From contig DAIDAG010000066.1 of assembly GCA_027310725.1 (NCBI GenBank), positions 96,828 to 160,827 on the forward strand: a stretch of 64,000 nt of DNA, written 5' to 3'. This DNA comes from Sideroxydans sp. (GTDB taxonomy: Bacteria; Pseudomonadota; Gammaproteobacteria; Burkholderiales; Gallionellaceae). Under the pieces are notes generated by a model. The model worked only from the letters and a program-made list of their open reading frames with translations, was not told where the DNA came from and did not search any database. Within the stretch, counting starts at the first letter, position 1. Each line of letters opens with the position of its first letter. Below, piece by piece: positions 1,642 through 63,664 of the stretch. A program made the position numbers and the translations under genes.

Positions 1642-1660
1642 TGCAAGATATGCACATGCA
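1642..1660. promoter_or_regulatory. TGCA-N11-TGCA operator
   Basis: TGCAagatatgcacaTGCA, intergenic, upstream of 1688. Confidence 0.6.
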
Positions 1661-1687
1661 CAACACTAAACAAACCGGAACAGCATC

Positions 1688-2044
1688 ATGACGATGCAAA
1701 GCCTGCGCGAGATGCTTGAAGCAGCCGCGCGATATTCCGCTGAGCAGACTGCTGAGAACCGTGCCATTGAGCAGGAGAAGGCAAAGAACAGGAAAACGCG
1801 TCCGACGGCTGCTGAGAGTCGCGCGCGACGCGCCCGCAAGGCCGCTCTTGATCCTGCACTTTGCTCGACGTGTCAAAAAGAACCGAAATACAAGACCAAG
1901 GCTGGTGTGTCCTATGGGACGCAGTGCTACACATGCATTACCAAACAGCGGCTGGAGCGGGAAGCAAAAAACAAGAAACCGGGTTCTAAAGAAAAACCAG
2001 CCGGTACCAAGAACAACAAACATTTCGAGAGTGCGACATGCTGA
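1688..2044 (+). CDS. Basic hypothetical protein with CxxC...CxxC zinc-finger-like motif
   Basis: CSTC...CYTC, K/R-rich; overlaps the start of the next gene. Confidence 0.55.
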   Translation: MTMQSLREMLEAAARYSAEQTAENRAIEQEKAKNRKTRPTAAESRARRARKAALDPALCSTCQKEPKYKTKAGVSYGTQCYTCITKQRLEREAKNKKPGSKEKPAGTKNNKHFESATC

Positions 2045-2688
2045 TAATTTCGGTCAAGCGCGGCAGGTGGCGCAACAAAGGCGGCATTGAGTCCGGCGAC
2101 AAGGAATTCCAGGCCCGCAGGCCGCAGGCAATTTCTCGCGACGGTGGCCGCTGCAGGTTTTGCAGTGTCAAGCTGGAAAAGATGCACGTCCACCACAAGG
2201 ATGACGATCATGACCACAACAGCCTTCCAAACCTATGGACTGCAGACGAATTGTGCCATGCAGTGTGCCATGTAGGATTGCTTGGGAAGGCAGGGAGCAT
2301 TACCTATCTGCCGGCGATGTCGCAAGAGGATATTTCACACCTGACGCGGGCGATTATTGTCGTCATTGCACGGGGCGGCAAGGATGCTGATGATGCTCGC
2401 CAGCTTGCGCGGTACCTGATCGCGAAGTTTTCCGAGCCAGTTACATCGACGTTCGGATCCTGCAACCCAGCCGAATTAGGGAATGCGCTACTTCAGTTGT
2501 CGGATTCCAGTTACAACAGTCGCGTGACAACGATGAAGGATATGCGAGTCCTGTTCAATGTGGATGTACTGTCGAAATCAGCAGGCAGCATCGCAAAGGT
2601 GTTGTACCCCAAGTCGCAAGATGACATTGTCGGAGACTGGCAGCGAATTGCCGAAGACATTGACGCCAAGGCGGGGATGCAGGCGTGA
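2038..2688 (+). CDS. icmJ: Type IVB secretion protein IcmJ/DotN-like
   Basis: RD..RCRFC...HVHHKDDDH.HN...NL...ELCH..CH followed by ITYLPAMSQEDISHL, the pattern of DotN/IcmJ; IcmB and DotA homologs are nearby. Confidence 0.75.
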   Translation: MLIISVKRGRWRNKGGIESGDKEFQARRPQAISRDGGRCRFCSVKLEKMHVHHKDDDHDHNSLPNLWTADELCHAVCHVGLLGKAGSITYLPAMSQEDISHLTRAIIVVIARGGKDADDARQLARYLIAKFSEPVTSTFGSCNPAELGNALLQLSDSSYNSRVTTMKDMRVLFNVDVLSKSAGSIAKVLYPKSQDDIVGDWQRIAEDIDAKAGMQA

Positions 2689-3854
2689 ATACAGGCGTTG
2701 AATTCGGGGTTGCATTTTTTGACAGTACAAACACAAAGGATGGGGGTGGCTGGTACTCCATGAATGGCGAGCGTGCCATGCGGTTTAACGGCTTCTCAGA
2801 CCTTGATGCCAGGCATGTGTGGATCACCAACCTGGCCATGTCAGACTTTTATGAGCAAGGTCTATCCAAGGCGGCTCACTTGCGGAACTCCAGTTTCTTT
2901 CATCAGACTCTTCAACATATCTCGAATGATTGCGGTTTTCAGCAAGGCTCTTCTATTCCGTTAGTCGTTGAGCAACTCAGCGGGATCGCGGCGCGCGTGA
3001 TGGAAATTTCGAAGCTCTGCATGCCCGGGCTGCGTATTCTGAAATCACTGCACGACAGCATCTATGACTTTATTGGGCTTGATGACATCAAGGATGACGC
3101 AGCTTGTATGTACCAGCCGGAGTTTCAGGCGGCATTTCAGGAAAATTCGTATGTTGCCGGAATTTATTGGCCGAGAGGTATTGGTACGGCGAGGTTGTCA
3201 ATGAATCGTGTCGATTTTGCTGAAGAAGTGCTTGGATACCCTTTCCCCATAGGCGCATGGCATTACGAGCGGAGCAATATGTCTGTGGATGATTTTATCA
3301 ATCTGGACGTTCCAGCCATCGCGTGTGTTGAAGTGGATCTCAAATCGGCAAATAAGCCTGAGCTATTAGCATTCGGTGCACAGATGAGCGGTACGGCAGT
3401 GATGCGCGAGTGGATCACTCAGCCCGAAGCGGCGATGCTAAAAATGGCGGATGCGAAGATCCGTATCAGTAACATTCTGCGTGGCAGCGCGATAAACGAC
3501 AGCGTTGAATTGCCATCATTACTTACAGGGGATGCTTTGATTCGTTCATCCTATTCTGCTGGTTTGGTAGCAGAGAATTATTTGCATGCGTTGACATCGA
3601 AGCGGTACGACAAAAGAACAAGGAACTCGCGGAACACATATTTCTTTCCATCTAGAGCGGTTTACCTGAAGGCTGTTGACCGGATGTTGTCCTACAGCCT
3701 CGCCCGGCAAATGTCTGATCGAGACCATATTGTGTCGATGTATGGTTTTGGCGCGATAAACATCTTGGTGACTGAAGACTTGTTCGCAGAAGCCGTGAAG
3801 GACGCTGCTGATATGGGGTTTGCCATCGTGTCTTCGAAGTTCAAACAAGAGTAG
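2685..3854 (+). CDS. Hypothetical protein, possibly a degenerate family B DNA polymerase-like fold
   Basis: 389-aa ORF with GTG start coupled to icmJ; weak resemblance to PolB motif order (see findings). Confidence 0.6.
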   Translation: MNTGVEFGVAFFDSTNTKDGGGWYSMNGERAMRFNGFSDLDARHVWITNLAMSDFYEQGLSKAAHLRNSSFFHQTLQHISNDCGFQQGSSIPLVVEQLSGIAARVMEISKLCMPGLRILKSLHDSIYDFIGLDDIKDDAACMYQPEFQAAFQENSYVAGIYWPRGIGTARLSMNRVDFAEEVLGYPFPIGAWHYERSNMSVDDFINLDVPAIACVEVDLKSANKPELLAFGAQMSGTAVMREWITQPEAAMLKMADAKIRISNILRGSAINDSVELPSLLTGDALIRSSYSAGLVAENYLHALTSKRYDKRTRNSRNTYFFPSRAVYLKAVDRMLSYSLARQMSDRDHIVSMYGFGAINILVTEDLFAEAVKDAADMGFAIVSSKFKQE

Positions 3855-3862
3855 GGGGAATT

Positions 3863-4728: not shown

Positions 4729-4739
4729 GCGAAAAAAAT

Positions 4740-5840: not shown

Positions 5841-5862
5841 ATTCGCTGGCTAAATAATTTAA

Positions 5863-5881
5863 TGCATCATATTATCATGCA
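5863..5881. promoter_or_regulatory. TGCA-N11-TGCA operator
   Basis: TGCAtcatattatcaTGCA upstream of the 5912-icmB operon. Confidence 0.65.
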
Positions 5882-5911
5882 CTAATTGAACGGCATCAAA
5901 CAGGAGGTTGT

Positions 5912-6193: not shown

Positions 6194-6206
6194 AGGGAGC
6201 TAAGAC

Positions 6207-9200
6207 ATGGCCTGGATGTGGATGTTCTTGCTGGTAGCGACGTTTTTTCTGATATTGGGGTTCAGCAAACAATTCCTCGTCGGAATCGAAACGCTTGCTC
6301 AGTGGGTCTCGTCCTTTGTGAAGCAGGATTTTTCGGCGTTTGTAACGCTGGAAAGCGTTGTGGACTATACAACGTTCTTGCGCAACGACGGCGGAATGGT
6401 GACGGTGATTGAATATGCCGGCGCCACGCAGATCATGGGGCGAACTGAATTCATGCAGATGTCCTCATCCGTTGACAATTTCTTTGCGCGACAGATGGGT
6501 GGTATTGGCCACGATCTTCAGGTGGTTTATCGTCAGGACAGCGGCAGTTCAGGCGTCGCAATCCGAAACGCCCTGACGAAGACCCGCGCTACCGCCAACC
6601 GTATCGGCCTTGACATCGAAGACCTGCTTGATGCCGAAGAAGACACCTTGAAGAAGGTGGTCGTAGATGAATCGATTTGGATCGTTGTGTCCACTTCACT
6701 TGCAGTGATCGAAAATCAGGAATCACTAAAGGAAGACGCCCAGAAGAAGGCTGAATTGGCGCGAGATATGAATTTGCCGCCACTTGGCTCCGCACAGAAC
6801 CCGCTCAAAATTGTAGAAGACCTCCTGCCCAAGCACGAAGGGTTCGTCAATGAAGTCTGGAATCTGTTCAACACGAGCGGCAAGTCCTCGGCGCGAATCA
6901 TGGACTGCCACGAGGTTGTCACAGCAATCCGCCGAGAGATTCAGCCGTTATCAACCAGTCCTGATTTTATTCCATGCCTCCCGGGTGACCGCGCTCCGAT
7001 GACAACCACCTTTTATGGTGCTCGCCCGTGGGAAGATATCTATTACCCGCCAATCTGGTCTCAGGCATGCAATTCTGAAATCACCGAACACTACAGCAAC
7101 GGCATGGAGAAGGTGTTTGTCGATGGCATGTACCACGGCACTGTTGCAATGGATCTGCCCCCGCAGACTCCTGAGCGCTTTGACCTGCTGATGAAGCGCC
7201 TGCGTCATATCCCGTTCCGGATCTCGTACCGTATCTACAATAGCGGACTTGACCGGTACAAGCTGAATCACACGCTCGTTCAATTCCTGTCTTTCAATCC
7301 CAAGTCAGAGAATCGCGCCATCAAAAACGCGATAGATACGATCATGGAAAGGGCGAAAGGCAGCACGGAGGCAGAAAAAACCGATCCAGCACTCGGGCTG
7401 GCGGTAACGATTACGACCTGGTCTGAAAGCGAGAAGACCTGTATTCAGAATATGCAGCTCATTCAGCGCGCGATGCAAAGCTGGGGTGGTTGCGACGTGT
7501 TACCTCGGGCGGGCGATGCAACCGATCTGTTTGTATCATCGCTTCCAGCCTTGTCTCACAGTTCGCCGGCGCGCTTCACCCTGAATAACGGCAGCGACAT
7601 CGCCAAGATGTTGCCTCTGTTCAGGCCAGCATCGCTATGGAAAGACGGCGCGGTGATCTTTACCTCGCCGGACGGGCGAATGATGCCGTTCCAGCCGGGT
7701 TCATCGTTGCAAAATGCATGGGTCTACCTCATATTCGCAACGATGGGGTCTGGCAAATCTGTTTTGCTCAACACGATAGAGCTGGGCATGTGCCTGGCGC
7801 CAGGCTTGAGCCGCCTGCCACTGATGACCGTGATCGACGTTGGTGAATCTGTCGCCGGCATGATCTCGGTGGTGCAGTCCTCCCTCCCGGATGGGCGCAA
7901 GCACGAGGCAGGTTACTTCAAGGTGAAAATGAGCGCGGAATTCGCGTTCAACGTGTTCGATACCCAGCTCGGGTTCCGCTTCCCGTTAGCGCGCGACCGT
8001 GATTTCCTGCGCAATTTCCTGACCATGATCGCAACTCCGGCGGGCGAGAAGACCGCCGAAAAGATGACCTCAGAACTGATGGGTATGGTCGTGGACGAGG
8101 CGTACAAAGAGCGCTCAGATGACCGGAATCCCGTGAAATTCCAGTTTGGTGTTGACCAGCAGGTTGACAAATGCATCAAAGCATCCGGCATCAAGATCGA
8201 CCAGGAAACGATCTGGTGGGAAGTAGTTGATGATTTATTTGCCGCCGGGCAGGTTGATAACTCCATCCGCGCGCAGCGCTACGCAGTTCCTACACTCGGC
8301 ATGATCCCGTCCATCCTGAAGAGTGGCGTCATCATGGACATGTTCTCCAACAACAATCCGCAGGGAGCTGCGTTGATCGAGGCAGCATCCATTATGGTCA
8401 ACGCCGCTATCCGCGATTACCCGGTGTTGTCCACCGTAACGCAATGGGACATCGGTTCCTGTCGTGTTGCTGGTATCGACTTGAACGATGTGCGCGGGAA
8501 TGGCGAGTCAGGTTTCAAGCAAACCGCGTTGATGTACGCTTTCGCGCAGCAGTCGGCAGCGCGAAACTATTACATCCACCCCGACATGCTCCCTCTCTGC
8601 AAAGAGATGTACCGCGATTATCACAGCAAGCGCGTTGAAGACGTGTGGTCTGAAATCAAGGCCATCATCTACGATGAATTCCATAACACGAAAGGTATTG
8701 AAGGTATCCGCCGTATCGTGAACATCGATATTCGCGAAGGACGGAAGTGGAACATCATGACCGTGCTGTCCAGCCAGTTGATTGAGGACTTCGATTCTGA
8801 CGCGATCGACAACATGACCGGCACGTTCATCCTGTCGGCCTCGAACGAAGGGGTAGTACAGAAGTGCAAGACCACCTTCGGTTTGTCGGATTCGGCAATC
8901 ACCGCGCTCAAAACCGAAGTGATCCGTCCGGGCACCGGCATGGTGATTTTTAATACCAAAGCCGGACAGAACATACAGGTTTTCCACAACCACCTGTCGC
9001 CGATCAAGATGTGGGCCTTCACGACCACCTCCGAAGACAAGATGGTACGCAAGCTCCTGTATGACGCCATGCCAGCGTCCCATGCCCGCCGGCTGCTTGC
9101 CAAGCGCTTCCCGAGATCCGGCCAGTTCAAGTCATACATTGAGCAGCAGCGCAACCGCATGATGTCTTCCGACGATGATGGCAACGTGATCAAGATCGTG

Positions 9201-9248
9201 GCCGAAGAGATCATTTCAGACTATCACAACGGGGCACTGCAGAGTTGA
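6207..9248 (+). CDS. icmB: Type IVB secretion ATPase IcmB/DotO (TraU-like)
   Basis: 1013 aa; RPASLW..G...F.SPDG...PFQPGSS.Q, Walker A ATMGSGKS, NVFDTQLG.R.P, AQRYAVPTL, YDEFH, REGRKWN. Confidence 0.9.
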   Translation: MAWMWMFLLVATFFLILGFSKQFLVGIETLAQWVSSFVKQDFSAFVTLESVVDYTTFLRNDGGMVTVIEYAGATQIMGRTEFMQMSSSVDNFFARQMGGIGHDLQVVYRQDSGSSGVAIRNALTKTRATANRIGLDIEDLLDAEEDTLKKVVVDESIWIVVSTSLAVIENQESLKEDAQKKAELARDMNLPPLGSAQNPLKIVEDLLPKHEGFVNEVWNLFNTSGKSSARIMDCHEVVTAIRREIQPLSTSPDFIPCLPGDRAPMTTTFYGARPWEDIYYPPIWSQACNSEITEHYSNGMEKVFVDGMYHGTVAMDLPPQTPERFDLLMKRLRHIPFRISYRIYNSGLDRYKLNHTLVQFLSFNPKSENRAIKNAIDTIMERAKGSTEAEKTDPALGLAVTITTWSESEKTCIQNMQLIQRAMQSWGGCDVLPRAGDATDLFVSSLPALSHSSPARFTLNNGSDIAKMLPLFRPASLWKDGAVIFTSPDGRMMPFQPGSSLQNAWVYLIFATMGSGKSVLLNTIELGMCLAPGLSRLPLMTVIDVGESVAGMISVVQSSLPDGRKHEAGYFKVKMSAEFAFNVFDTQLGFRFPLARDRDFLRNFLTMIATPAGEKTAEKMTSELMGMVVDEAYKERSDDRNPVKFQFGVDQQVDKCIKASGIKIDQETIWWEVVDDLFAAGQVDNSIRAQRYAVPTLGMIPSILKSGVIMDMFSNNNPQGAALIEAASIMVNAAIRDYPVLSTVTQWDIGSCRVAGIDLNDVRGNGESGFKQTALMYAFAQQSAARNYYIHPDMLPLCKEMYRDYHSKRVEDVWSEIKAIIYDEFHNTKGIEGIRRIVNIDIREGRKWNIMTVLSSQLIEDFDSDAIDNMTGTFILSASNEGVVQKCKTTFGLSDSAITALKTEVIRPGTGMVIFNTKAGQNIQVFHNHLSPIKMWAFTTTSEDKMVRKLLYDAMPASHARRLLAKRFPRSGQFKSYIEQQRNRMMSSDDDGNVIKIVAEEIISDYHNGALQS

Positions 9249-9265
9249 GCGTCGCTTTTTTATTC

Positions 9266-9284
9266 TGCAAGTTTATTTCATGCA
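9266..9284. promoter_or_regulatory. TGCA-N11-TGCA operator
   Basis: TGCAagtttatttcaTGCA upstream of 9321. Confidence 0.65.
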
Positions 9285-10531: not shown

Positions 10532-10548
10532 TCTACTGGAGATCGACA

Positions 10549-14680: not shown

Positions 14681-14699
14681 TGCAAGTATGTATCATGCA
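14681..14699. promoter_or_regulatory. TGCA-N11-TGCA operator
   Basis: TGCAagtatgtatcaTGCA just downstream of a TAAAAT -10-like hexamer, upstream of 14726. Confidence 0.65.
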
Positions 14700-16543: not shown

Positions 16544-16572
16544 ATTATTGCATGTGTATTACATGCAATAAT
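16544..16572. promoter_or_regulatory. Extended TGCA-N11-TGCA palindrome (best copy of the operator)
   Basis: ATTATTGCATGT-gtatt-ACATGCAATAAT, perfect arms of at least 12 bp. Confidence 0.75.
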
Positions 16573-17515: not shown

Positions 17516-17534
17516 TGCAATTATTATTTATGCA
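17516..17534. promoter_or_regulatory. TGCA-N11-TGCA operator
   Basis: TGCAattattatttaTGCA upstream of the helicase. Confidence 0.65.
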
Positions 17535-28140: not shown

Positions 28141-28191
28141 TTGTCCGAAAAAAACGTCGGTGCTATAGTTGGTGCATAATTACTACTTGCA
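28141..28191 (+). promoter_or_regulatory. Sigma70-like promoter with downstream TGCA-N11-TGCA operator
   Basis: TTGTCC-N17-TATAGT (28141-28169) with extended -10 TG; operator TGCAtaattactactTGCA at 28173-28191. Confidence 0.65.
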
Positions 28192-34516: not shown

Positions 34517-34532
34517 TCAGGGGAACCGAGAC

Positions 34533-35819: not shown

Positions 35820-35838
35820 CGAAGCCCGGAGATCAACC

Positions 35839-36315: not shown

Positions 36316-36320
36316 CAATT

Positions 36321-40046: not shown

Positions 40047-40188
40047 GGTTGCAGGCATATACCCGACATAAGCAAAGAGGGTTATTATCCTGCAACACAA
40101 AACCAACAATAAATCGGGGAAATAGATTGGCAATCAATTTGAATAGAAGCATATCTGTTGATGGCATAGAAAATATCAGACTCTCAGC

Positions 40189-44141: not shown

Positions 44142-44159
44142 CCAGAAGGACTGAGAAAA

Positions 44160-46070: not shown

Positions 46071-46086
46071 TGAATCGGAAGCTAAA

Positions 46087-47103: not shown

Positions 47104-47113
47104 GAGATGATCA

Positions 47114-50100: not shown

Positions 50101-50191
50101 CGGCAAGGCACATTTCACTGCGCTGGCAACCGGCGAAAATCCGGCCAAGTATCTGGTGGCGACGAAGTTTGAGGATTTGGTGAGTCAATAG
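47114..50191 (+). CDS. res: Type III restriction endonuclease Res
   Basis: EMETGTGKTYVY, DEPQ, LRYSATH, ALREGWDNPNVFQIC, QTIGRGLR, YNPDWA..VVETK. Confidence 0.95.
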   Translation: MKLHFEPNLDYQLDAIEAVCDLFRGQEICRSEFTVTMRSPTTQTADDLFPGATPQQMSLGVAESDLGIGNKLTLLDDEITENLHAIQLRGGLPPSGMLASGDFTVEMETGTGKTYVYLRSIFELNKRYGFTKFVIVVPSVAIKEGVYKSLQITEEHFKALYAGAPLDYFIYDSAKLGQVRNFATSSNIQIMVVTVGAINKFGDEAEAKAEESDETKARQKSQNVMYRHSEKTGGERPIDLIRATSPIVIVDEPQSVDGGLDGKGKKAMQQLNPLCTLRYSATHVDKHHMIYRLDAVDAYERKLVKQIEVAAATVQGGNNRPYVRVLSVSNKKGVPVARVELDVETLAGVQRQDVPVEDGDDLEQTTGRAIYANFRIGEIKAGKGDAFVELRYPGGEKYLQVGEAHGDVEPLAIQREMIRRTIKEHLDKEKRLRPQGIKVLSLFFIDAVDKYRQYDADGNPVKGDYARIFEEEYRRIAKHPDYLSLFTEVDLATAAEEVHNGYFSIDKKKVGNKSVEVIKDTRGDTKADDDTYNLIMRDKEKLLGFETPLKFIFSHSALREGWDNPNVFQICTLRDIQSERERRQTIGRGLRLCVNQEGQRLRGFDINTLTVIATESYEQFADNLQKEIEADTGIRFGIVQDHQFAAVVVKGVDGKEAPLGFEKSKALWAHLMAQGYIDAKGKVQDSLKVALKNGTLVVPAEFEAQRAQIAEMLRKLSGKLEIKNADERKQIRTRQAVLNSPEFKALWDRIKHKTTYRVQFDNEKLIHNCVDVLRSDQFQITKTRLQWRKADISIGKGGIDAKEKKGADIVTLNEGDIELPDLLTDLQDRTQLTRKTITRILTESGRLNDFKRNPQQFIELTGEIINRQKRMALVDGIKYQRLGEDQFYAQELFSHEELTGYLKNLLDAEKSVYEQVVYDSGTERDFATQLEMNNAIKVYAKLPGWFKVPTPLGSYNPDWAVLVEQDGGERLYFVVETKSSLFTDDLRDKESSKIECGKAHFTALATGENPAKYLVATKFEDLVSQ

Positions 50192-50274
50192 GCAGTGGTT
50201 GATTGCGGGGTTGGGCAAACTAGAAACTGTCAGCTCCAAGGTGGAGCGTAGTGGTTATTTGAAGGGAGAGATTT

Positions 50275-51540
50275 GTGCGTTTCATACATTGTGCCGACCT
50301 TCATCTTGATAGTCCGCTACGGGGTTTGGAACGCTATGAAGGTGCTCCGGCGCAAGATATGCGGGAAGCTACACGGCGCTCGTTTGCCAACATCATAGAT
50401 CTCGCGCTAGAGCGGGAGGTCGATTTTGTTCTGATAGCCGGAGATGTGTTTGATGGTGATTGGCTCGACTTCAACACAGGGCTGTTTTTTGCGAATCAAC
50501 TGCGTCGTCTTGCCGATGCCGATATTCTTGCTTTCATTGTGCGTGGCAATCACGATGCCCTGAGCAAGATTTCTAAAGCTGTGACGCTGCCGAAGAATGT
50601 GCATGTGTTCAAATCGTCCAAGCCCGAGACGGTGGTTGATGAACATATCGGCTACGCAATCCACGGCCAGAGCTTTGCCACCGGCGTGGTCACGGATGAT
50701 CTGGCTGCCCAGTATCCAGATGCCCACCCCGGACTGCTCAACATCGGTCTGCTGCACACAGCACTCGCTGGCCGCGAGGGGCACGAATCTTACGCGCCGA
50801 CAACATCAGAAAAGCTTTCCAGCAAGGGATACCACTACTGGGCGCTTGGTCATGTACATAATCGAGAGATTGTGCGTGAGAATCCCTGGATCGTGTTTCC
50901 AGGGAATACTCAAGGAAGACACGCACGCGAACTTGGAGAGAAAGGCTGCATGGTCGTCGAAGGCGATGCGGATGAGGGCATCCGCTCAGTGGAGTTCGTC
51001 GCGACGGATGTTGCACGCTGGCAGCAGTTGACGATTGATGCTACCGACGCTACAACCCTGGACGATCTTCAGGAATCAGTTCAGCAAGCCATTCGTGGTG
51101 CAGTTTTGGAGTCCGGTGACCGTCTGCTCGCTTTTCGGCTATCGATTGGGGGGCGGACGTCGTTGCACGGAAGGATTGCCGGCAGTCCTGAAAGTTTTCG
51201 AGCGGATATTTGCGCATGGCTGAATGAAGCTTCGAGTGGTACAGCTTGGTTGGAAAAGATCAAGCTTTCAGTGTCAGCTCCATTGGACCTTGCTGTTTTG
51301 GCGAAACGAGATGATCCGTTCGGCATGCTGTTGAAGAAGCTCGACGAGCTTGCTGCCGACCCAGAGGCATTGGCGATGTTGGCGGAATCCGTTCTATCGG
51401 AACTCGAACAGAAGATCCCTGCCGAGTTACGCGAGCGGGAGTCGTCGCTAAAGCCGCTTTCGGATGAGGTTCGCATTGAGGCACTGGCAGCGGCGCGCGA
51501 GCGGCTCCTAGCCGCAATTTCTCTTGAGGCCGAGCAATGA
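50275..51540 (+). CDS. SbcD/Mre11-family metallophosphoesterase nuclease (YhaO-like)
   Basis: ADLHLD, AGDVFD, GNHD, LLHT, ALGHVH, PGNTQGRH..E.G.KG. Confidence 0.9.
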   Translation: MRFIHCADLHLDSPLRGLERYEGAPAQDMREATRRSFANIIDLALEREVDFVLIAGDVFDGDWLDFNTGLFFANQLRRLADADILAFIVRGNHDALSKISKAVTLPKNVHVFKSSKPETVVDEHIGYAIHGQSFATGVVTDDLAAQYPDAHPGLLNIGLLHTALAGREGHESYAPTTSEKLSSKGYHYWALGHVHNREIVRENPWIVFPGNTQGRHARELGEKGCMVVEGDADEGIRSVEFVATDVARWQQLTIDATDATTLDDLQESVQQAIRGAVLESGDRLLAFRLSIGGRTSLHGRIAGSPESFRADICAWLNEASSGTAWLEKIKLSVSAPLDLAVLAKRDDPFGMLLKKLDELAADPEALAMLAESVLSELEQKIPAELRERESSLKPLSDEVRIEALAAARERLLAAISLEAEQ

Positions 51541-54500
51541 GAATCTCACAACTCGACCTGAAGGCGTTTGGCCACTTTACTGATCGCAGCATCGTATTCG
51601 ATGGGGGAAAAGATTTTCATATTGCATACGGTCCTAACGAGGCCGGGAAGACGACAATTTCCCGTGCGTTGAGAGCAGCCCTGTTCGGCGTTCCAGAGCG
51701 GACGACCGATAATCACTTGCATGCCAATCCGAATATGCGCGTTGGTGTAGTGCTTGAGCTCAACGGTGAGCGGCTTGCAGCCATGCGGCGCAAGGCTCGC
51801 AAAAATAGTTTGATTAAGTACGATCCTCTGACTGGCGAGGAACTCGGTGAAGCGATTTCCGACGAGATAATGACTGCATGGATGGGTGGTCTAACAGAAG
51901 GTCTCTACACGTCAATGTTTGGCCTCGATCACGACGAGTTGGTCGCCGGAGGCAAGGCGTTGAGCGAGGGTAAAGGGGAGCTTGGGCAGAGTTTGTTCGA
52001 GGCTGGAGCGGGCCTTTCTTCGGTCAGGGCTCTGCGCGAGCGTCTTGCGAAAGAAGCTGAAGATTTGTTCCGACCCCGCGCGTCGAGTTCGGTTATTCAC
52101 AAGGTACTGGAGCAATACAGTGATGCGCGCAAGGAAGCCAAGGAAGCGCAGACCAAGCCAGCTGAATGGGAAACACTGCGAAAGGCAGCAGAAGTGGCGA
52201 GGGCTGCTTATGACGCGGCGAGATCGGAGCAAGAGGTACTTCAGCGTGAGGCTCGCCGACTTGAGCGTCTGGCCGCCGTTCTGCCTGATGTTGCGTCGCG
52301 GTCGTTTGCATTAGATCACCTCGCCATCTTGGGTGATGTGACGAAGTTACCTCATGAAGCATCAGCCGAGCGTATTGCTGCAGAAACACGATTGAGGCAG
52401 GCAGAGCAAACTGGTAGAGACGCAGCCGCCAACATGGCAGAGTTACAGGCAGAACTGGAAGCAATTAATCTGCCCCAAACAATCTTGGACGAAAGCGGGT
52501 CGATTGAGTCTCTTTATTTCACGCTTGATGCTTTCAGATCTGCACGCGATTTAGCCGCGAGCGCAAGGGGCCGCGTAGAGCAGGCCGACTCTCATATCGA
52601 CTTTCTGTTGTCAGAGATCGGTGAGTCCAGACAGGATAACCTACGTTCGTTTGTTCCGAGCGCAACCTTGCGCGCTAGAGTCCAGAGTTTGGTCACCAAA
52701 GGCGCTACGCTTCAGACTGAACTGGATGCTACGACCAGGCTTGCCGCAACAACGAAGAAAGAGCTGGAGGAGCTGAATAACGAGTTGGCTGATTTGGGGT
52801 TGCAGGATGTGCCTGCTCCTTTGATCGCAGCTATCAGCGTATTTGAGGCTCAAGGCAATCCGGAATCTAAAGCAGAAGAACTATCGCAGCAAGCTGCGAG
52901 ATTGGAAACTGCTCTGGTTCGGGACGCGGCAGCGCTGGCAGGCAGTAGCATTGATGAACTCGTTTCGATGGGGATTCCATTACCGGCAGAACTTCAACGT
53001 TTCCGTACTGCCCGTGAAGAAATCGAAACGAGGAGGCGGCTCCTCAAGGACAAGATAGAGGGCATTGAAAACGATATCGCAACTGTGAAAGGTGAGCTCG
53101 AAGGACTCATGCAGCAAGGTGAGGTTCCTACTGCAGAACACCTTGCTGAACAGCGCGGTCTTCGCGAAAGCCTCTGGCATAAGATTCGCAGCAAGGTGTT
53201 TCCTGCACCAAACGAGCAACAGTTTGAAGGTGTCCTTCCGACATCAGCGGAATACGAGTTTTCTGTTCAGGCTGCAGACGTGACGGCAGACAGCCGTTTT
53301 GCAGACGCTGCACGAGTATCTCTGTACACGGAACTACTCAAACGCCAAGCCCAGATGCAGAATGCCATAGAATTGGAAAGCGGCCGTTTGGTTTCACTCG
53401 ATACAGAGGCAAGCGATGTGAAGTTGCAGTGGCAGGCACTTATCGACAAGCATAGTCTTCCTTCTATCGGTGTTGCCGAGATGACAGATTGGCTAACTAA
53501 GCGAGAACTCTTTTTACAGCGTCACCAAGCTTATGCAGATGTTAAACATCAGGCAAGCATGCTTACAGAGCGAGCTGTGACAATGCGTACCAGTCTGTCG
53601 TTGGCATTATCAGAGGCGAAGCTGGCAGCTTGTGGTGAGAACGAGATGCTAGCTCAAGCAATTGGTCGGGCAAGGGTTTTTGTTGACCATGCGAACACCG
53701 CCGCTACCAGTCAAAAGGTGCTTGCCAGAAAGAAGAAAAGCGCCGATGAAAAGCTCGCCGACGCCGATAGACAGGCCGAAAGAGGCAATAAGCAACTGGA
53801 AGAATGGAGAGTCGGCTGGAGTGAATCCATGCAGGCAATTCGTCTTGCCCCAGACTCTGGCGGGGAAGAGGCTGCCGCGAGACTTGGACAGTTCGAAGAC
53901 TTCGAGGATGCAGTGGACTCGCTGGAAGCAGCTCGCGCCGAATTAGATTCTGCATCCTGCACTCTTACAAGGGTCGAAAAGGAAGCCGCGCGACTCTGCG
54001 AGATAACAGGTTACATCCGTGCGAATAGGCCAGATGATGCCGTGATTGAAACACTCTATGAGCGTTTGAGCGAAGCGAAAGAACTTGCACAGCGTCGGAA
54101 GTCACTTGAAGAAAGGATTAAGGAAGCTGGAAATGCTGCTACTCAGGCCGATCAAACAACCGGTTTGGCAAATCAGGAATTGGCTCGGTTAAAGTCTGTA
54201 GCCGGTTGTGAAACTCTCGCGGAGCTGGTTGATGCAGAAAATCGAAGTGCCGAACATATAAAGCTTGAAATAGAAATTGCTGCGATTGAGGCAAGGCTGG
54301 TGGTGGCATCGGCCCTTCCGCTTCAGCAGCTGTTAGAACAAGCCGCAGGGCAAGACCTGGCATTGGTTCGGGTGGCGCTTGAGCGTGCAGGCGAAGATCT
54401 TCAGACATGCACACCTCAAGTGGAGGAGAGGCACGGGAAGTTGATCGAGGCAGAGGCGGCACTTGGCAAGGTTGATGGAGATGCGAATGCGGCGGATGCA

Positions 54501-55025
54501 GAGCAAAGAGCAGCAGAAGCGGCGGCTAGGCTTTCAAATCTAATCGCCGAATATGCATCAGTACGACTCTCGTCGTCCATTATTTCGGAGGTTATCGAAA
54601 CCTACCAGCAACGCTATCAAGGGCCTCTGTTGGCGCGCGCCTCTGAACTATTTTCCACTATTACAGGCGGACGATTCTCCAAAGTCGCAACAGACTTCGA
54701 TGACGATATGACGATCCTTGTTGGCGTTCGAGCCAATGGCAAACGAGAAACCGTCAGCAATCTAAGCTCGGGTACACGGGATCAGCTTTTCCTGGCATTG
54801 CGCTTGGCCGCAATTGAGAGCCATGTTGCTAATCAGGAGCCAATGCCGGTTGTGGTGGACGACATCGTTATCAATTTTGACGACGCATCAGCGAGCGCAA
54901 CCTTCAAAGTGCTGGCGGAATTATCCAAGAAGACGCAGGTATTGTTTTTTACTCACCATGAACACTTGTTGGAAAGAGCGAAAAATGCAATAGGCTCAGG
55001 ATCATTCATGGCTCACAAGCTATAG
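51537..55025 (+). CDS. SMC/Rad50-like coiled-coil ATPase (YhaN-like, AAA_27)
   Basis: GPNEAGKTT, long coiled coil, LSSGTRDQLFLALRLA, VVDD..INFDD, FTHH. Confidence 0.9.
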   Translation: MRISQLDLKAFGHFTDRSIVFDGGKDFHIAYGPNEAGKTTISRALRAALFGVPERTTDNHLHANPNMRVGVVLELNGERLAAMRRKARKNSLIKYDPLTGEELGEAISDEIMTAWMGGLTEGLYTSMFGLDHDELVAGGKALSEGKGELGQSLFEAGAGLSSVRALRERLAKEAEDLFRPRASSSVIHKVLEQYSDARKEAKEAQTKPAEWETLRKAAEVARAAYDAARSEQEVLQREARRLERLAAVLPDVASRSFALDHLAILGDVTKLPHEASAERIAAETRLRQAEQTGRDAAANMAELQAELEAINLPQTILDESGSIESLYFTLDAFRSARDLAASARGRVEQADSHIDFLLSEIGESRQDNLRSFVPSATLRARVQSLVTKGATLQTELDATTRLAATTKKELEELNNELADLGLQDVPAPLIAAISVFEAQGNPESKAEELSQQAARLETALVRDAAALAGSSIDELVSMGIPLPAELQRFRTAREEIETRRRLLKDKIEGIENDIATVKGELEGLMQQGEVPTAEHLAEQRGLRESLWHKIRSKVFPAPNEQQFEGVLPTSAEYEFSVQAADVTADSRFADAARVSLYTELLKRQAQMQNAIELESGRLVSLDTEASDVKLQWQALIDKHSLPSIGVAEMTDWLTKRELFLQRHQAYADVKHQASMLTERAVTMRTSLSLALSEAKLAACGENEMLAQAIGRARVFVDHANTAATSQKVLARKKKSADEKLADADRQAERGNKQLEEWRVGWSESMQAIRLAPDSGGEEAAARLGQFEDFEDAVDSLEAARAELDSASCTLTRVEKEAARLCEITGYIRANRPDDAVIETLYERLSEAKELAQRRKSLEERIKEAGNAATQADQTTGLANQELARLKSVAGCETLAELVDAENRSAEHIKLEIEIAAIEARLVVASALPLQQLLEQAAGQDLALVRVALERAGEDLQTCTPQVEERHGKLIEAEAALGKVDGDANAADAEQRAAEAAARLSNLIAEYASVRLSSSIISEVIETYQQRYQGPLLARASELFSTITGGRFSKVATDFDDDMTILVGVRANGKRETVSNLSSGTRDQLFLALRLAAIESHVANQEPMPVVVDDIVINFDDASASATFKVLAELSKKTQVLFFTHHEHLLERAKNAIGSGSFMAHKL

Positions 55026-55115
55026 ATTGATCTCTGCTGTTCAAGCATAGATATGATCTCGCTTCTCCATCACAATAGAACGGTCAGAAGCAGCAGAAAC
55101 TAGGGGAGCTGGGCT

Positions 55116-57173
55116 TTGTATATATCGAAAATAAAGATTGAGAATTTCCGCCTCTTCGGCTCGGGCGACCATGCATTCGTCCTTTACCTTAACCCAGGAC
55201 TTACCGCTCTGGTTGGCGAGAACGATGCTGGCAAGACGGCAGTTATCGATGCCCTTCGTCTGGTACTTGGAACTACAGATCAAGAGTATCTCCGGCTTGA
55301 ACCGGCAGACTTTCATCAGCCACCGGATGGTGGTAACCGAGCTGCACAGATATTGATTTCTTGCACGTTTGAAGGTCTTACAGCCCATGACCGAGGAGCA
55401 TTTGCAGAGTACCTGACCTATCGTACGACCGGTGCTGGCACCGAAACCGTCCTGCAAGTTACATGGATTGCGAAAAGGGATGAGAAGGAAGGAGCCACAC
55501 GCCGCTATCTCCCAATCGAGTGGCGATCTGGCTCTGAGGGCGATGGGCCGCATCTCGATCCAGGCGCAAAGTTTCTGCTGATGGCGACGTATCTGCGCCC
55601 ATTGAGGGATGCAGAGCGATCTATGTCAGCTGGTCGAGGATCCAGACTTTCGCAGATTCTTCAACACACCCACGAAATAAAGAATAAGGGTGAGCCATTC
55701 ATGAAGTCAGCAAACCCCACGCCAGACCCCAACAAATTGAGTGTGCTTGGCCTTGGAGACTATGCCAACTATCTGCTTGGAGAGAACGAAGGGATCAAGA
55801 ACACACGCAAGAAGCTGAACACCGACTATCTCTCACCTCTTTCCTTCAGCGGAGACCCACTGGATGCCAAAATATCCGTTAGTGGCATCTCTGATGACAG
55901 CACACGTCTGCGGCAACTCCTCGAAAAGTTGGAAGTTAGCCTGAGCGCTACAGGGCTGACTGACGAGATTCATCGTCGTGGACTCGGATCGAACAATCTA
56001 CTTTTTATGGCGTGCGAATTACTATTGCTGGCGACGGAGGAGGAAGGGTTTCCGCTGCTACTCATTGAAGAGCCGGAGGCACATCTTCATCCGCAACGCC
56101 AGTTGCGCCTTATGGGGTTTCTTCAGGATCAAGCCAATATACAACGCGCCGATGGTCAGCAGATTCAAATAATTGTTACGACGCACAGTCCAAACCTTGC
56201 GTCCGATATCAAACTCGATAACCTTGTGCTTATGCGTGATGGCAAGGCTTTCTCGATGGCACGTAAAATGACTAAGCTTGAGTCAACAGACTACAGCTTT
56301 CTCAAGCGCTTCCTTGATGTCACGAAAGCGAATCTTTTCTTCGCAAGAGGTGTAATCATCGTTGAAGGTGATGCAGAGAACATTCTTTTGCCGACGCTCG
56401 CGCGCTTAATTGGGCGCGATCTTCGCGAGCATGGAGTATCACTAATCAATGTAGGCGGTGTTGGCCTTCGCCGGTACGCCAATATTTTCCAACGTGCCGA
56501 TGCCGTTAAGGATGGCGAGCTAAAAATCCCAGTGGCGTGCATTACGGATGTGGACGTGATGCCCGACTGCGCACCTTGGATTGTCGGCAAGCTCAAGGAG
56601 GGGGAGGCCATCCCGAAGATCAGCGAATCAACACGGAAGTGGCGTGTTAAACAGGACTTTCCGGGAGATGGCCTCGCTACCCATCGGGATACCATTGGAG
56701 CAAAGGCAAGCGGCCAGTGGGTCAAGACGTTTATTGCTGGTGAATGGACCCTTGAGTATGACCTCGCATTCTTTGGGCTAGGGGAAGAGGTCTGGATTGC
56801 AGCACACCTCGCCGCGAAAGACGAGAAAATCCACTTGGGGACAGCATCATTAGAGACGGAATCTGCATCAGCAGGTGCTGTATATTCAGAGTTGGCAACA
56901 AAGGGGTTATCTAAGGAAGAGCTCGCGTCCCACGTCTATGCAAAGATCACAAGCAACGGCGTCTCAAAGCCCATCGCTGCACAGTACCTCGCCGAAATTC
57001 TGGAGAATAGATTTCAAAAAAATGAACTAAACGCCAAAACCCTTCGCAGTAAGTTGCCCGTCTATTTGGTGCAGGCGATTGCCTATGTGACTAGCTCGTT
57101 TGATGAAGTAAATACGTCAGGCTTGGTAGGTGAAGATGGTGCGAAGAACTTCGGAGACGCAACTAGTGCCTAA
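55116..57173 (+). CDS. gajA: OLD-family ATP-dependent nuclease, Gabija GajA-like
   Basis: GENDAGKT, GLGSNN, IEEPEAHLHPQ, TTHSP, TOPRIM VEGDAE...DVD, TLEY. Confidence 0.88.
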   Translation: MYISKIKIENFRLFGSGDHAFVLYLNPGLTALVGENDAGKTAVIDALRLVLGTTDQEYLRLEPADFHQPPDGGNRAAQILISCTFEGLTAHDRGAFAEYLTYRTTGAGTETVLQVTWIAKRDEKEGATRRYLPIEWRSGSEGDGPHLDPGAKFLLMATYLRPLRDAERSMSAGRGSRLSQILQHTHEIKNKGEPFMKSANPTPDPNKLSVLGLGDYANYLLGENEGIKNTRKKLNTDYLSPLSFSGDPLDAKISVSGISDDSTRLRQLLEKLEVSLSATGLTDEIHRRGLGSNNLLFMACELLLLATEEEGFPLLLIEEPEAHLHPQRQLRLMGFLQDQANIQRADGQQIQIIVTTHSPNLASDIKLDNLVLMRDGKAFSMARKMTKLESTDYSFLKRFLDVTKANLFFARGVIIVEGDAENILLPTLARLIGRDLREHGVSLINVGGVGLRRYANIFQRADAVKDGELKIPVACITDVDVMPDCAPWIVGKLKEGEAIPKISESTRKWRVKQDFPGDGLATHRDTIGAKASGQWVKTFIAGEWTLEYDLAFFGLGEEVWIAAHLAAKDEKIHLGTASLETESASAGAVYSELATKGLSKEELASHVYAKITSNGVSKPIAAQYLAEILENRFQKNELNAKTLRSKLPVYLVQAIAYVTSSFDEVNTSGLVGEDGAKNFGDATSA

Positions 57174-59169
57174 AGCAAAGATGTTTCAGCATCCGATTAT
57201 GGAAGCGGCGGATGTCGCATGGGTTTGTGGTGTGATGGGTCTTCCGCAGACGGCATTTACTGGTGTTGATGGAACTGATCCGCGCCTTGCCGCACTTAGG
57301 TCTACAGAAACACTGGACATAGAGGCGTGCCCCGGAAGCGGCAAGACGACACTCCTTGTTGCAAAGCTGGCAATCCTTGCTAACAAGTGGCCTTATCGGC
57401 GGCAAGGTATTTGCGTGGTCTCGCATACCAACGCTGCACGAAATGAAATCGAGACGAAGCTTAGCTCCTGTTCAGCGGGAAGCTCTCTTCTTCGCTATCC
57501 TCATTTCGTTGGCACCATCCATTCTTTCGTTAATGAATTTCTCGCCATTCCGTGGCTTAGATCGCAGGGGCTGGCAATCAAGGCAATCGATACTGAGATT
57601 GCGCTCAATGTGCGCTGGAGCAGGGTGCCTATTGCGACCAAGAACTATCTGAAAAATAAAATGCGCGACAAATACTGCCTTTCCTATGATCGCGCAGATT
57701 TTGGAGGCGGTGATAAAAAATCATTGGGAGAACATACGCCCACTTATAAAGCTCTTGTGAAAATCTGCGAAGAAACGAGCAGGAGCGGCTACTTCTGTTA
57801 TGACGAGATGTTCGTGTGGGCTAGTCAGCTTCTTGACTCAGACCCGAATGTTCTTGATACATTGCGTTTTCGATTTCCCCTCGTCTTCATCGACGAAGTT
57901 CAAGACAACAGTGAACAACAATCTGCCTTTCTTCATCGGGTGTTCTCCGCCGGACAAAGCCCGGTGATTCGTCAGCGCTTTGGCGATTCCAATCAGGCGA
58001 TCTATCAGCACGCAGATCAAAGCGGAGCAACAACGGATCCATTCCCCGGCTCCGTGAAGGCGGATTTGCCGCACAGTTTTCGGTTTGGGCAACGTATCGC
58101 CGATCTTGCAAACCCGCTGGGTGTTGTGCCGCAAGGGTTGGTAGGTCGTGGTCCACTTCAGGAGCAAGTAACGGTCAAAAGCAGGCCGAGTGTGCTTTTT
58201 CTCTTCGATGACCAGACAATCCTTTCTGTTCTCCCTGTGTACGCTAATTACCTTCTAAATACGTTTTCTGCCGATGAACTGGCAGTTGGCATCTTCACGG
58301 CTGTTGCCGGCGTACACAAATCAGAGAAGTCTGACGAGGCTCCTCGTTTTCTCGGGCACTATGCCCCAGCATATAATCCTGCCATCAGTAGTAAGGGATC
58401 GAGCCTGGATACATTTATCCAATACATTCTGTCAGCACGGCTTGAAACTGCTGGCCATGTTGATGTATATCCAATCGTCTCAAAAACAGGGGCTGCCATT
58501 CTGCGATTGGCGCAGATCGCTGGTGCAGATATATCCTTCGCGAGGCGCAAAAGTTCCCATCGCTACGTTCTGGAGTTATTGGAAGGAAGGCCCGAACAGC
58601 ATCAATCGTATCTCAGGCTCATTGATCGTCTCATCCGTGATGGCGGTGAGATAACCCAGGCGTACTGGAACGACGAATGCAAGTCCTGCGTTTCTGCAAT
58701 TGCAGCTGCGATTGCAGACAAACCTGCTACTTCGAGCGAATGCGCCAAATTCCTTGAATGGGTGTCGTCAACAGCGGCATCCGCAGCCCAGATTCCAGAA
58801 ACGCCAGAGAATGTGTACCGCTATCCGCCAGAGGCACCAAGGGTCAATGTTCGGCTGGGTTCCATTCACTCAGTGAAGGGGGAGACTCATACTGCGACAC
58901 TTGTGTTGGAATCCTATTTCCATTCCCATCATTTGCAAGAGCTAAAGCCTTGGCTATTGGGTATGAAAACTGGCGGCACAGGGCAAAAAGTGAGAATGAC
59001 CGGGCGGCTCAAACTCCACTATGTCGCCATGACCCGTCCCTCCCACCTCCTTTGCCTTGCGATGCGCCGAGACTCTCTTGATGCTGCAGAGATAACAACG
59101 CTTGCAGGGCGTGGATGGCATATCATCGACTGCACTGGAAATAACAAAACGGCCAGTGAAGGCGCATAA
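57166..59169 (+). CDS. gajB: UvrD-like helicase, Gabija GajB-like
   Basis: [47 protein letters not shown]; overlaps the gajA stop. Confidence 0.85.
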
Positions 59170-60497: not shown

Positions 60498-60531
60498 CGC
60501 AAGAGTTAATAATGCACCAATTACCTACGCA
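60498..60531. promoter_or_regulatory. Tandem degenerate operator CGCA-N11-TGCA-N11-CGCA
   Basis: Lies between divergent ORFs and has the exact 11-nt spacing twice. Confidence 0.5.
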
Positions 60532-62936: not shown

Positions 62937-63243
62937 CCCCGACTTAGTCCTGAATTACGCCGTGGTCATTTAAAGGCCGATTTCCACCCTGCATCGTCGG
63001 AAAGAACATATTTTTTTAATCCCTATTATTAGTGTATTGCATATACTTGCACCATGCAATATAGTTTAGCACAACAACATTTTTACGGGGTGATTGCTAT
63101 GTTATTTGGAATACTGGTCGATGGAAGAAGCGAAAACGAGCGTGGAAGCGCGTCTACGCGCCATGTTGGCTTAGTCAGGGTGTTTTTCAGGTTCACCAGG
63201 ATGAAGCTGGCGGATTTTTTCAAGCAAAAAGGGAGGAAGTGAA

Positions 63244-63618
63244 ATGTCTGATATGCAAGCAGTCAAACAACGGATTTCGGTCGGCGACGCGCGGGTTTTC
63301 ATAGCCAAGAACTTTCAGATTGGCGATCTCGTGACAACACGTAGTTTCGAGAAGAGCGGCTTTCGCTGCGACACCAATGTCCTCAACGCTTTGACCGATA
63401 GCGGCGAACTCTCCAGAAAAGGTAGTAAATTTGCCGTTGGCTCGGCCAGAAAGGGGATTGTCCGGGTGGTTGAGTTGAATTGCTACGAAGTAGCCGTTAT
63501 CCGTGAAGAAAAGGAAATCGTTTTTAGTTCCGATGCTCTTCTGTCTGCTATGCCCATTTCCCATCCTGCATTTCACCCCGAAAACTGCTCAACCAGGGTA
63601 AATCGGCTACGCGGATAA
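63244..63618 (+). CDS. Hypothetical protein
   Basis: RBS GGAGG, 124 aa. Confidence 0.55.
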   Translation: MSDMQAVKQRISVGDARVFIAKNFQIGDLVTTRSFEKSGFRCDTNVLNALTDSGELSRKGSKFAVGSARKGIVRVVELNCYEVAVIREEKEIVFSSDALLSAMPISHPAFHPENCSTRVNRLRG

Positions 63619-63645
63619 ATTCAGCTTGTGCCCTTTCTTACGTTG

Positions 63646-63664
63646 CGCAATTATAACACTTGCA
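63646..63664. promoter_or_regulatory. Operator variant CGCA-N11-TGCA
   Basis: Immediately upstream of the methylase at 63688. Confidence 0.5.

What the first reader, a model, noticed from the sequence alone, without database searches (positions are those of the whole stretch)
1642..63664. Element-wide regulon: TGCA-N11-TGCA palindromic operator ahead of most backbone operons
Seen: exact TGCA-N11-TGCA with an AT-rich spacer at 1642, 5863, 9266, 14681, 16549, 17516 and 28173, all intergenic and upstream of operon starts. One-mismatch variants occur at 60498/60513 (tandem), 63033 and 63646. At 28173 the site lies 3 bp after a TTGTCC-N17-TATAGT promoter, a repressor position. I saw none in intergenic DNA of the defence island. 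Inference: a single dimeric repressor (functionally KorA/ArdK-like) co-controls transfer and cargo genes and would allow zygotic induction in a naive recipient. The regulator is not evident in this window.
Basis: partly seen in the sequence, partly recalled or inferred. Interest (0 to 1): 0.75.

Follow-up and report, generated by a model that had tools for sequence, protein, structure and literature searches.

The report
Shared operator of rare conjugative element
One 25-base mirror-image DNA site stands in front of most transfer, replication and excision genes of a rare kind of chromosome-integrated conjugative element and is kept in related elements; it is likely the binding site of one element-encoded repressor that switches these genes together, a familiar design in an unstudied element.

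Summary
Confirmed and extended. There are 13 exact TGCA-N11-TGCA copies against 2.6 expected; 7 lie in the 5.6% of the window that is intergenic. The full site is T-NN-TGCAW-N9-WTGCA-NN-A. It is confined to a Dot/Icm-type (MPF-I) conjugative element with a type IVb pilus. All 13 strict matches in the genome lie on this contig, and other family genomes have 0-3 unless they carry a related element. Sites recur at orthologous promoters in four other genomes and precede three unrelated excisionase genes at three integration sites. They overlap predicted core promoters, 12-85 bp before start codons, which fits repression; the promoters are weak, so an activator is not excluded. The best candidate binder lies 32 kb upstream of the window: a 179-aa XRE-type helix-turn-helix protein with operator-like sites in its own promoter. 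This assignment is about even odds. The design resembles KorA/ArdK regulons. A side lead may matter more: a tyrosine-recombinase-like gene sits beside traH, where related plasmids carry their relaxase, also in pALWED1.1, whose relaxase was reported missing.

The parts
1642..1660 (.). operator core (25-bp site 1639-1663), 27 bp before the operon 1688-5840 (118-aa ORF, IcmJ/TraT-like, 389-aa, 91-aa winged-helix-like, nuclease, PAPS-reductase-like)
5863..5881 (.). operator core, 30 bp before the 93-aa ORF and traU/icmB (VirB4-like ATPase 6207-9248)
9266..9284 (.). operator core, 36 bp before ORF 9321; same place in G201 and G202; right half changed (9282 G>T) in 2 of 4 laid metagenome runs
14681..14699 (.). 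operator core, 26 bp before ORF 14726; G201 has a site after its cytosine methylase gene
16549..16567 (.). operator core, 85 bp before ORF 16653; matching site in G602
17516..17534 (.). operator core directly after a terminator-like hairpin (17485-17510), 55 bp before uvrD-like 17590; conserved in G602
28173..28191 (.). operator core 3 bp after TTGTCC-N17-TATAGT and 12 bp before the topoisomerase N-terminal half; conserved in G602
32035..32053 (.). exact site inside ORF 31892-32389; degenerate at the same place in G602; uncertain
60498..60516 (.). one-mismatch site; its right half is the -35 of ATGCAC-N17-TAGAAT, before the 92-aa ORF 60574
63033..63051 (.). borderline one-mismatch site between the cyclase gene and ORF 63244
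   Evidence: score 14.2, background level
63646..63664 (.). one-mismatch site 23 bp before a short second cytosine-methylase-like ORF (63688, 119 aa)
3..1624 (+). DUF1376 protein (begins before the window) and DnaC/IstB-like ATPase: phage-like replication pair; its operator lies at G000:C36:96336, 491 bp before the window
6207..9248 (+). TraU/IcmB, VirB4-like ATPase of the MPF-I system
34479..38453 (+). traW, traX-like and traY/dotA genes
39510..59169 (+). defence island without intergenic operators (negative control)

Best explanation
The 25-bp palindrome T-NN-TGCAW-N9-WTGCA-NN-A is a conserved, element-specific site in front of the backbone operons of an integrated Dot/Icm-type (MPF-I) conjugative element, and is likely the operator of one element-encoded repressor, probably the 179-aa XRE-type protein at G000:C36:64847-65386. 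Shown: the motif, its confinement to the element, its conservation at orthologous promoters, its place before pilus, T4SS, coupling-protein, replication, DNA-processing and excisionase genes, and an XRE helix-turn-helix fold in the candidate's model. Inferred: a dimer binds the two TGCA half-sites 15 bp apart, blocks RNA polymerase and limits its own gene. When repressor is lacking (a fresh recipient) or is neutralised, perhaps by the element's AntA/KilA-C antirepressor, excision, replication and mating-pore genes would switch on together.
For: Motif statistics. The strict pattern over 317 family genomes gives G000 13, G688 (=G201) 5, G602 4 and all others 0-3; the G688 and G602 matches cluster in related elements. 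In 12 orthologous site pairs the TGCA cores are 95% identical, positions -3/+21 92%, the inner spacer 68% and the flanks 46%. Site-to-start distances are 12, 23, 26, 27, 30, 36, 54, 55, 57 and 85 bp (57 recounted from 60516); six are too short for an upstream activator site plus a promoter and leader. Sites lie downstream of the -10, contain it, or supply the -35. Three unrelated excisionase-like genes in G000, G201 and G078 are each preceded by the site. Candidate binder: Atlas score 0.95 to XRE-family regulators; model pLDDT 92.7; residues 14-80 match the HigA2 HTH domain at Z 5.2, rmsd 2.2 A, 65 aligned. A site scoring 20.6 follows TTGACT-N17-TAGCAT in front of the gene in G078 and L015, and a conserved TGTA-N11-TACA variant covers its -35 in both G000 and G078. 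G078 (99% complete) keeps this gene and the sites, while TraU, TrbC, the recombinase-like gene and the 91-aa ORF were not found there. The gene is present in 4 of 4 laid runs, at matching depth in the 3 also laid on the window. Its plasmid homologues are on MPF-I plasmids where checked.
Against: There are no binding or expression data. Predicted promoters are mostly weak (4-11 bits with recalled sigma-70 weights). The tool's consensus scan found only 4 promoter-like sites in window 1-18000 against 14.3 in shuffles, none on the + strand at the six operators there. In G000 the two sites before the XRE gene are degenerate (8.1 and 6.1). The gene was not found in G201, G202 or G602, which carry the motif, though neighbouring genes are also unassembled or cut by contig ends there. 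Five partial plasmid regions with a homologue of the gene (pXF64-HB, pBXO1-1, RPME01, pACP3.1, pG69) gave no element-wide palindrome. In the C. gilardii plasmid, which has its own palindrome, a second HTH gene also has a site upstream. pALWED1.1 has a repeated palindrome and no homologue in 90 kb scanned. One site is broken in 2 of 4 near-identical strains (only 40 of 373 differences were displayed). Core conservation is partly circular because sites in relatives were found with the matrix.
Confidence: 0.55

Rival explanations
1. The site is a repressor operator, but another element protein binds it: the 91-aa winged-helix-like ORF (window 3863-4138), the AntA/KilA-C protein, the HigA-like ORF at C36:161159, or a gene on an unassembled part. 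The XRE protein and its ~200-aa partner would then be a separate module.
For: The 91-aa ORF is 71% identical in G201 and G202 and lies in an operator-headed operon. The XRE gene has a ~200-250-aa partner in all 8 elements aligned and occurs on plasmid regions with no evident palindrome. Other MPF-I plasmids have palindromes without it.
Against: The 91-aa ORF was not found in G078 (99% complete), which keeps the sites, and its Atlas hits are leads only (0.87-0.90). The XRE gene is the only backbone regulator-like gene seen with sites in its own promoter.
Confidence: 0.23
2. The binder is an activator or dual-function regulator, in the manner of SetCD/AcaCD or lambda CI at PRM (recalled examples), that turns on otherwise weak promoters.
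For: Few consensus promoters. At the pilS, rep, alpA and 92-aa promoters the right half-site forms the -35 (TTGCAC or ATGCAC) with a -10 at exactly +37, which puts the dyad centre near -41, a class II activator position; this geometry is conserved in G201 for pilS and rep. Excisionase control is typical of ICE activators (recalled).
Against: Six of ten window sites end 36 bp or less before the start codon, and the topoisomerase site lies downstream of a good -10. The site is symmetric and its position relative to promoters varies.
Confidence: 0.16
3. A host-encoded factor or nucleoid protein recognises the site and the element has adapted to it.
For: 104 of 317 family genomes have at least one strict match; TGCA is over-represented in the genome (17119 against 11619 expected).
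Against: 213 of 317 family genomes have none and genomes without a known related element have at most 3. All 13 strict matches of G000 are on C36. Near-identical elements (98.5%) with the sites sit in genomes titled as different groups.
Confidence: 0.05
4. Chance: TGCA-rich, AT-rich intergenic DNA.
For: Three of the 13 exact matches score as background and a fourth (21040) is not conserved.
Against: Shuffle tests, the held-out matrix and conservation in four other genomes.
Confidence: 0.01

Closest known systems
IncP-1 RP4/RK2 global regulators KorA, KorB, KorC, TrbA
   Same: Element-encoded repressors binding repeated operators across the backbone (KorA 7 and KorB 12 operators), with zygotic induction after transfer (PMC7314908, passages read).
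   Different: Different operator sequence and protein family; MPF-I rather than an IncP mating system; integrated element; the operator also precedes excisionase genes; no KorA/KorB/TrbA family hit among the scanned ORFs.
IncW R388 repressor network (ArdK, StbA, KorA)
   Same: All-repressor negative feedback with overshoot after conjugation (PMC3937220, passages read).
   Different: R388 splits control among six repressors acting on strong promoters; here one motif spans all backbone modules and the predicted promoters are weaker.
SXT/R391 SetCD and IncC AcaCD activator boxes (recalled, not read here)
   Same: One motif couples excision and transfer genes in an integrating element.
   Different: Those are FlhDC-like activators acting upstream of -35; no such family was hit here, and many sites are too close to start codons.
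MPF-I plasmids without a recognised relaxase: C. gilardii WM2 plasmid, pND6-2, pALWED1.1
   Same: Same T4BSS gene set and the same tyrosine-recombinase-like gene near traH/icmL. The C. gilardii plasmid and pALWED1.1 have their own repeated intergenic palindromes.
   Different: They are plasmids, TraU is only about 34% identical to the closest, and their palindromes differ (YGTATCG-N6-CGATACR; GTATATAC).
MOB_M relaxases (TcpM, MobK, MpsA)
   Same: Tyrosine-recombinase-related proteins that act as relaxases and are often annotated as integrases (bioRxiv 10.64898/2026.01.13.699239, passages and section 22 read).
   Different: Membership not tested (the MOB_M profile was not available); the passage read links them to MPF-G and does not mention MPF-I.

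Membership tests
Global repressor regulon of a conjugative element (KorA/ArdK-like function) | Repeated operator at several backbone promoters, absent from the host chromosome | tested here: met
Global repressor regulon of a conjugative element (KorA/ArdK-like function) | Operator overlaps the core promoter or start site | tested here: inconclusive
   Distances and predicted promoters fit, but promoters are weak and start sites are unmapped
Global repressor regulon of a conjugative element (KorA/ArdK-like function) | Element-encoded DNA-binding protein that is autoregulated | tested here: inconclusive
   XRE-fold candidate with a strong site in G078 and L015 and weak sites in G000
Global repressor regulon of a conjugative element (KorA/ArdK-like function) | Repression and zygotic induction shown by expression data | not testable with these tools
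   One RNA run held only 0.05 of the words, as contigs
IncP KorA/KorB/TrbA or IncW ArdK proper | Homology to these proteins | tested here: inconclusive
   No such family among Pfam/NCBIfam hits of the scanned ORFs; no direct alignment was run
XRE (Cro/C1-type) helix-turn-helix proteins | XRE HTH fold in the candidate regulator | tested here: met
   pLDDT 92.7; Z 5.2, rmsd 2.2 A over 65 residues to the HigA2 HTH domain, with the other top rows XRE-like; HTH_31 in 12 of 65 family members. The second HTH is read from helix pattern and sequence only.
MPF-I (type IVB) conjugative system | TraU/IcmB, DotA/TraY, DotL/TrbC, DotM, IcmL, IcmK, DotD, TraI, TraW | tested here: met
Integrative conjugative element | Chromosomal location beside an integrase, excisionase and tRNA att site | tested here: met
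   Relatives G201 and G078 end at integrase + excisionase + tRNA sequence followed by chromosomal genes. G000 C36 starts with a tRNA-Glu 3' copy and an AlpA gene; which integrase serves it is unresolved.
Integrative conjugative element | Relaxase of a known family | tested here: inconclusive
   PF03432 and PF07514 not found in G000, which is 65% complete; other MOB families not searched genome-wide; candidate recombinase-like gene present
MOB_M relaxase | Tyrosine-recombinase catalytic residues | tested here: met
   R, K, R-H, H and Y conserved in 5 aligned homologues
MOB_M relaxase | Score above the MOB_M profile cut-off, and oriT nicking | not testable with these tools

The most novel reading that the evidence does not exclude
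This is a family of relaxase-less MPF-I integrating elements in which one previously undescribed double-HTH repressor gates the whole life cycle. Its operator is re-attached to whichever integrase-excisionase module the element picks up (three unrelated excisionases at three tRNA sites). DNA transfer is started by a tyrosine-recombinase-like relaxase encoded divergently from traH, which would also be the relaxase reported missing from pALWED1.1-family Acinetobacter mega-plasmids and unrecognised in pND6-2.
Probability: 0.3. Interest if true: 0.78.

Novelty: new variant of a known kind. Interest (0 to 1): 0.5.

Why it matters
MPF-I systems are described as extremely rare among ICEs (PMC5587801, passages read). 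In the paper searches run I found no description of this motif or of a regulatory map for such an element. The operator gives a ready list of co-regulated promoters and a named candidate regulator, so the switch that links excision, replication and mating can be tested in a laboratory strain. The element is widespread: 19 runs from 12 studies (one study may be the source of this DNA) hold more than half of an 8-kb probe, in mine drainage, soil, peat, aquatic and bioreactor metagenomes. The side lead, a recombinase-like gene at the relaxase position, offers a testable answer to a stated open question: the relaxase of pALWED1.1-family mega-plasmids (PMC8490738, passages read).

Tried and rejected
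Complex prediction of the XRE protein with its 205-aa partner gave no answer (score 0.00, partner fold uncertain); it is used neither way. The partner's model was poor (pLDDT 46). Its fold search gave only tied weak rows (best Z 3.5, IcmQ among them), and profile searches of PDB, Pfam and NCBIfam gave nothing useful, so the RES/ADP-ribosyltransferase-like reading I considered is unsupported. Foldseek on the XRE model had no match at E <= 0.001. The viral contig scan with TraU found nothing. An order-wide search of 401 genomes with the XRE alignment found only G000 and one weak HTH hit; the family-wide search found G000, G078 and nine weak hits near E 1e-6. Searches of earlier findings by place and by sequence were empty. 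Known host-factor motifs (NtrC TGCA-N9-TGCA, Mur/Fur TGCA-N7-TGCA, sigma-54, LysR T-N11-A; all recalled) were rejected on spacing and on element specificity. G203, G650 and G167 loci with distant homologues had no site above 12 in six short loci, too little sequence to count. L017 was checked as a possible G202-type XRE and is not one (79% DNA identity). A literal search for the motif in papers found 0; closed bioRxiv supplements and subscription papers could hold it.
Full report
Observation. The pattern TGCA-N11-TGCA occurs 13 times in the window against 2.6+/-1.8 in dinucleotide shuffles. Intergenic DNA is 5.6% of the window (p 2e-6), and shuffled intergenic DNA yields 0.13 on average and at most 2 in 500. 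Spacer 11 stands out in the window (13 against 0-7 for the other spacers) but not in the genome, where codon-phase spacers such as 5 and 8 are commoner. The one-mismatch class as a whole is only mildly enriched (65 against 45.8). The defence island has no intergenic site.

The motif is longer than reported. Thirteen intergenic sites on contig C36 give T at -3, A at +21, W next to each TGCA, and a G/C preference at +5/+13. The 17 best matrix hits in the 3.0-Mb genome are all on C36, four of them not in the training set. The strict 25-bp pattern matches G000 13 times, all on C36 by the listing. Across 317 genomes of the family it matches G688 5 times, G602 4 times and all others 0-3 times; 104 genomes have at least one match.

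The element. The window is G000:C36:96828-160827. C36 from about 55 kb to 164 kb encodes a type IVB (MPF-I) system (TrbC/DotL, DotM, TraI, DotD, IcmL, IcmK, TraO-like, IcmJ, TraU, TraW, DotA), a type IVb pilus, an AntA/KilA-C antirepressor, a DUF1376 + DnaC-like pair, helicases, a split topoisomerase and a defence island. Further sites lie before the trb operon, pilS, traH, the recombinase-like gene, the icmG region and the replication pair, and two flank an AlpA-like gene beside a tRNA-Glu 3' copy at the contig start. The host is a betaproteobacterium: G201, titled so, has the same contig coordinates as G688 of the same family. I did not determine the family name. G201 and G078 carry related elements that end at an integrase and tRNA sequence followed by chromosomal genes (gene names and the tRNA-Ser label for G201 are my reading of the sequence). 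A survey found MPF-I systems extremely rare among ICEs (PMC5587801, passages).

Conservation. Sites recur at orthologous promoters in G201, G202, G602 and G078. In 12 pairs the cores are 95% identical against 46% for flanks; this is partly circular, since relatives' sites were found with the matrix, but their positions are independent evidence. The in-gene site 32889 is kept in G602, as is a degenerate form of 32035; 21040 is not. Three excisionase-like genes with no significant mutual BLASTP similarity (G000 AlpA, G201, G078) each have the site just upstream. Against strict constraint: in two of four near-identical strains laid from metagenomes a G>T change at 9282 breaks one half-site (40 of 373 differences shown).

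Repressor or activator. Site ends lie 12-85 bp before the start codons I picked, six of ten within 36 bp, which leaves no room for a promoter downstream of the site. Predicted promoters place the site after the -10 (topoisomerase; XRE gene in G078; excisionase in G201), around the -10, or as the -35 (recalled weights). That mix is typical of repressors (established knowledge). Two results cut the other way. Consensus promoters are scarce (4 found against 14.3 in shuffles in window 1-18000). And at four promoters the right half-site is the -35 with the -10 at exactly +37, a class II activator geometry conserved for pilS and rep in G201. I put repression at about 0.8.

The binder. No regulator family was hit among window ORFs; a 91-aa ORF looks winged-helix-like but has only lead-level support. 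The best candidate is C36:64847-65386. It belongs to a family of 124 representatives, scores 0.95 to XRE regulators, folds confidently into nine helices and matches XRE HTH domains over residues 14-80. A second HTH-like motif (GRELSAYVRWF) is strongly conserved. Its promoter carries a strong site in G078 and L015, and weaker ones in G000, including a TGTA-N11-TACA variant within a 33-bp stretch 94% identical between the two genomes. G078 retains it and the sites, while TraU, TrbC, the recombinase-like gene and the 91-aa ORF were not found. It is present in all four laid runs. Against: it was not found in three incomplete motif-bearing genomes. Homologues occur in 66 plasmid records, and five partial regions examined show no element-wide palindrome. 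The C. gilardii plasmid has one (YGTATCG-N6-CGATACR; 7 intergenic segments, p 2e-12) but also a second HTH gene with a site upstream. pALWED1.1 has repeated GTATATAC without a homologue in 90 kb, and pND6-2 has no homologue. Given repression, I put this protein at about 0.65-0.7, hence 0.55 overall.

Mechanism. Shown: motif, specificity, conservation, gene context and fold. Inferred: a dimer binds the operator and silences backbone promoters and its own; absence of repressor in a new recipient, or antirepression, releases excision, replication and transfer genes together, as measured for RP4 and R388 (PMC7314908 and PMC3937220, passages). No expression data bear on this.

Side lead. Neither PF03432 nor PF07514 relaxase was found in G000, which is 65% complete. 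A 316-aa tyrosine-recombinase-like gene (C36:88822-89772) lies divergent from the traH operon and directly before icmL, with operators in the intergenic region. It keeps the catalytic residues. It has homologues in 147 plasmid records, 73 typed non-mobilizable, against 316 of 3780 for TraU-bearing records. The same divergent arrangement holds in pALWED1.1 and pND6-2, whereas pXF64-HB and pG69 have a MOB_P relaxase directly before traH. The relaxase of pALWED1.1 was reported as unidentified (PMC8490738, passages), and recombinase-like MOB_M relaxases are known. Against: 74 of the 147 records are typed mobilizable or conjugative, and MOB-suite lists MOB_P for pALWED1.1. The protein could instead be a resolvase.

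Verdict. The feature is real and conserved, and its logic is familiar. What is new is the operator, the candidate regulator family, the rare element type and the coupling to swapped excision modules. Earlier AI notes describe similar regulons in other elements (not checked here). Novelty: new variant of a known kind. Interest 0.5, raised by the testable relaxase lead.

Noticed in passing
L005:10822-11772 (G000:C36:88822-89772): Tyrosine-recombinase-like gene divergent from traH and fused to the icmL operon, with the same position beside traH in pALWED1.1 and pND6-2; candidate for the missing relaxase.
   Followed up: partly
L004:4060-5386 (C36:64060-65386): The XRE-type gene has a ~200-250-aa partner of unknown fold in all 8 elements aligned, divergent in some and in one operon in others.
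   Followed up: partly
L005:17120-19669 and window 3-1624: Phage-like module inside a conjugation operon: AntA/KilA-C antirepressor, DUF1376 protein and DnaC-like ATPase; conserved in G201 and G202.
   Followed up: partly
window 28204-29721 and 31188-31925: Type IA topoisomerase split into two genes with three ORFs between; the split is also seen in G602, and the halves lie about 35 kb apart in the C. gilardii plasmid.
   Followed up: partly
window 39510-59169: Defence island: SNF2 helicase, DUF4391, type III methylase and restriction subunit, PLD-like nuclease, metallophosphatase + AAA_27 pair, OLD nuclease + UvrD pair. G602 has a different island at this spot.
   Followed up: no
L013, L032, L033 (NZ_OP484953.1): C. 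gilardii plasmid has its own element-wide palindrome YGTATCG-N6-CGATACR: 10 exact GTAT-N10-ATAC copies and several near matches.
   Followed up: partly
L041, L067 (pALWED1.1): GTATATAC occurs 7 times in intergenic DNA of 41 kb and 12 times in a further 49 kb; possible global operator.
   Followed up: no
window 63688-64000: Short (119-aa) ORF whose start looks like a cytosine methylase, with its own operator; the full-length methylase is at 12040-13467.
   Followed up: no
window 61563-62936: Adenylate/guanylate cyclase fused to hemerythrin, 69% identical near the integrase end of the G078 and G201 elements.
   Followed up: no
L004:1953-3959: OLD-family ATPase/nuclease gene is a variable insert: not covered in any of 4 laid runs, and replaced by about 1 kb in contigs of 3 of them.
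   Followed up: no
L001-L002 (C36:7000-40000): Cobalamin biosynthesis cluster and a heavy-metal efflux operon (names read from protein starts) lie between the att-like end and the backbone and carry no high-scoring operator.
   Followed up: no
L018, L019: Elements in genomes titled Oxalobacteraceae bacterium and uncultured beta proteobacterium are about 98.5% identical, suggesting recent transfer or mis-binning.
   Followed up: no
window 2685-3854: 389-aa ORF after icmJ with no family hit, conserved in G201 and the C. gilardii plasmid.
   Followed up: no
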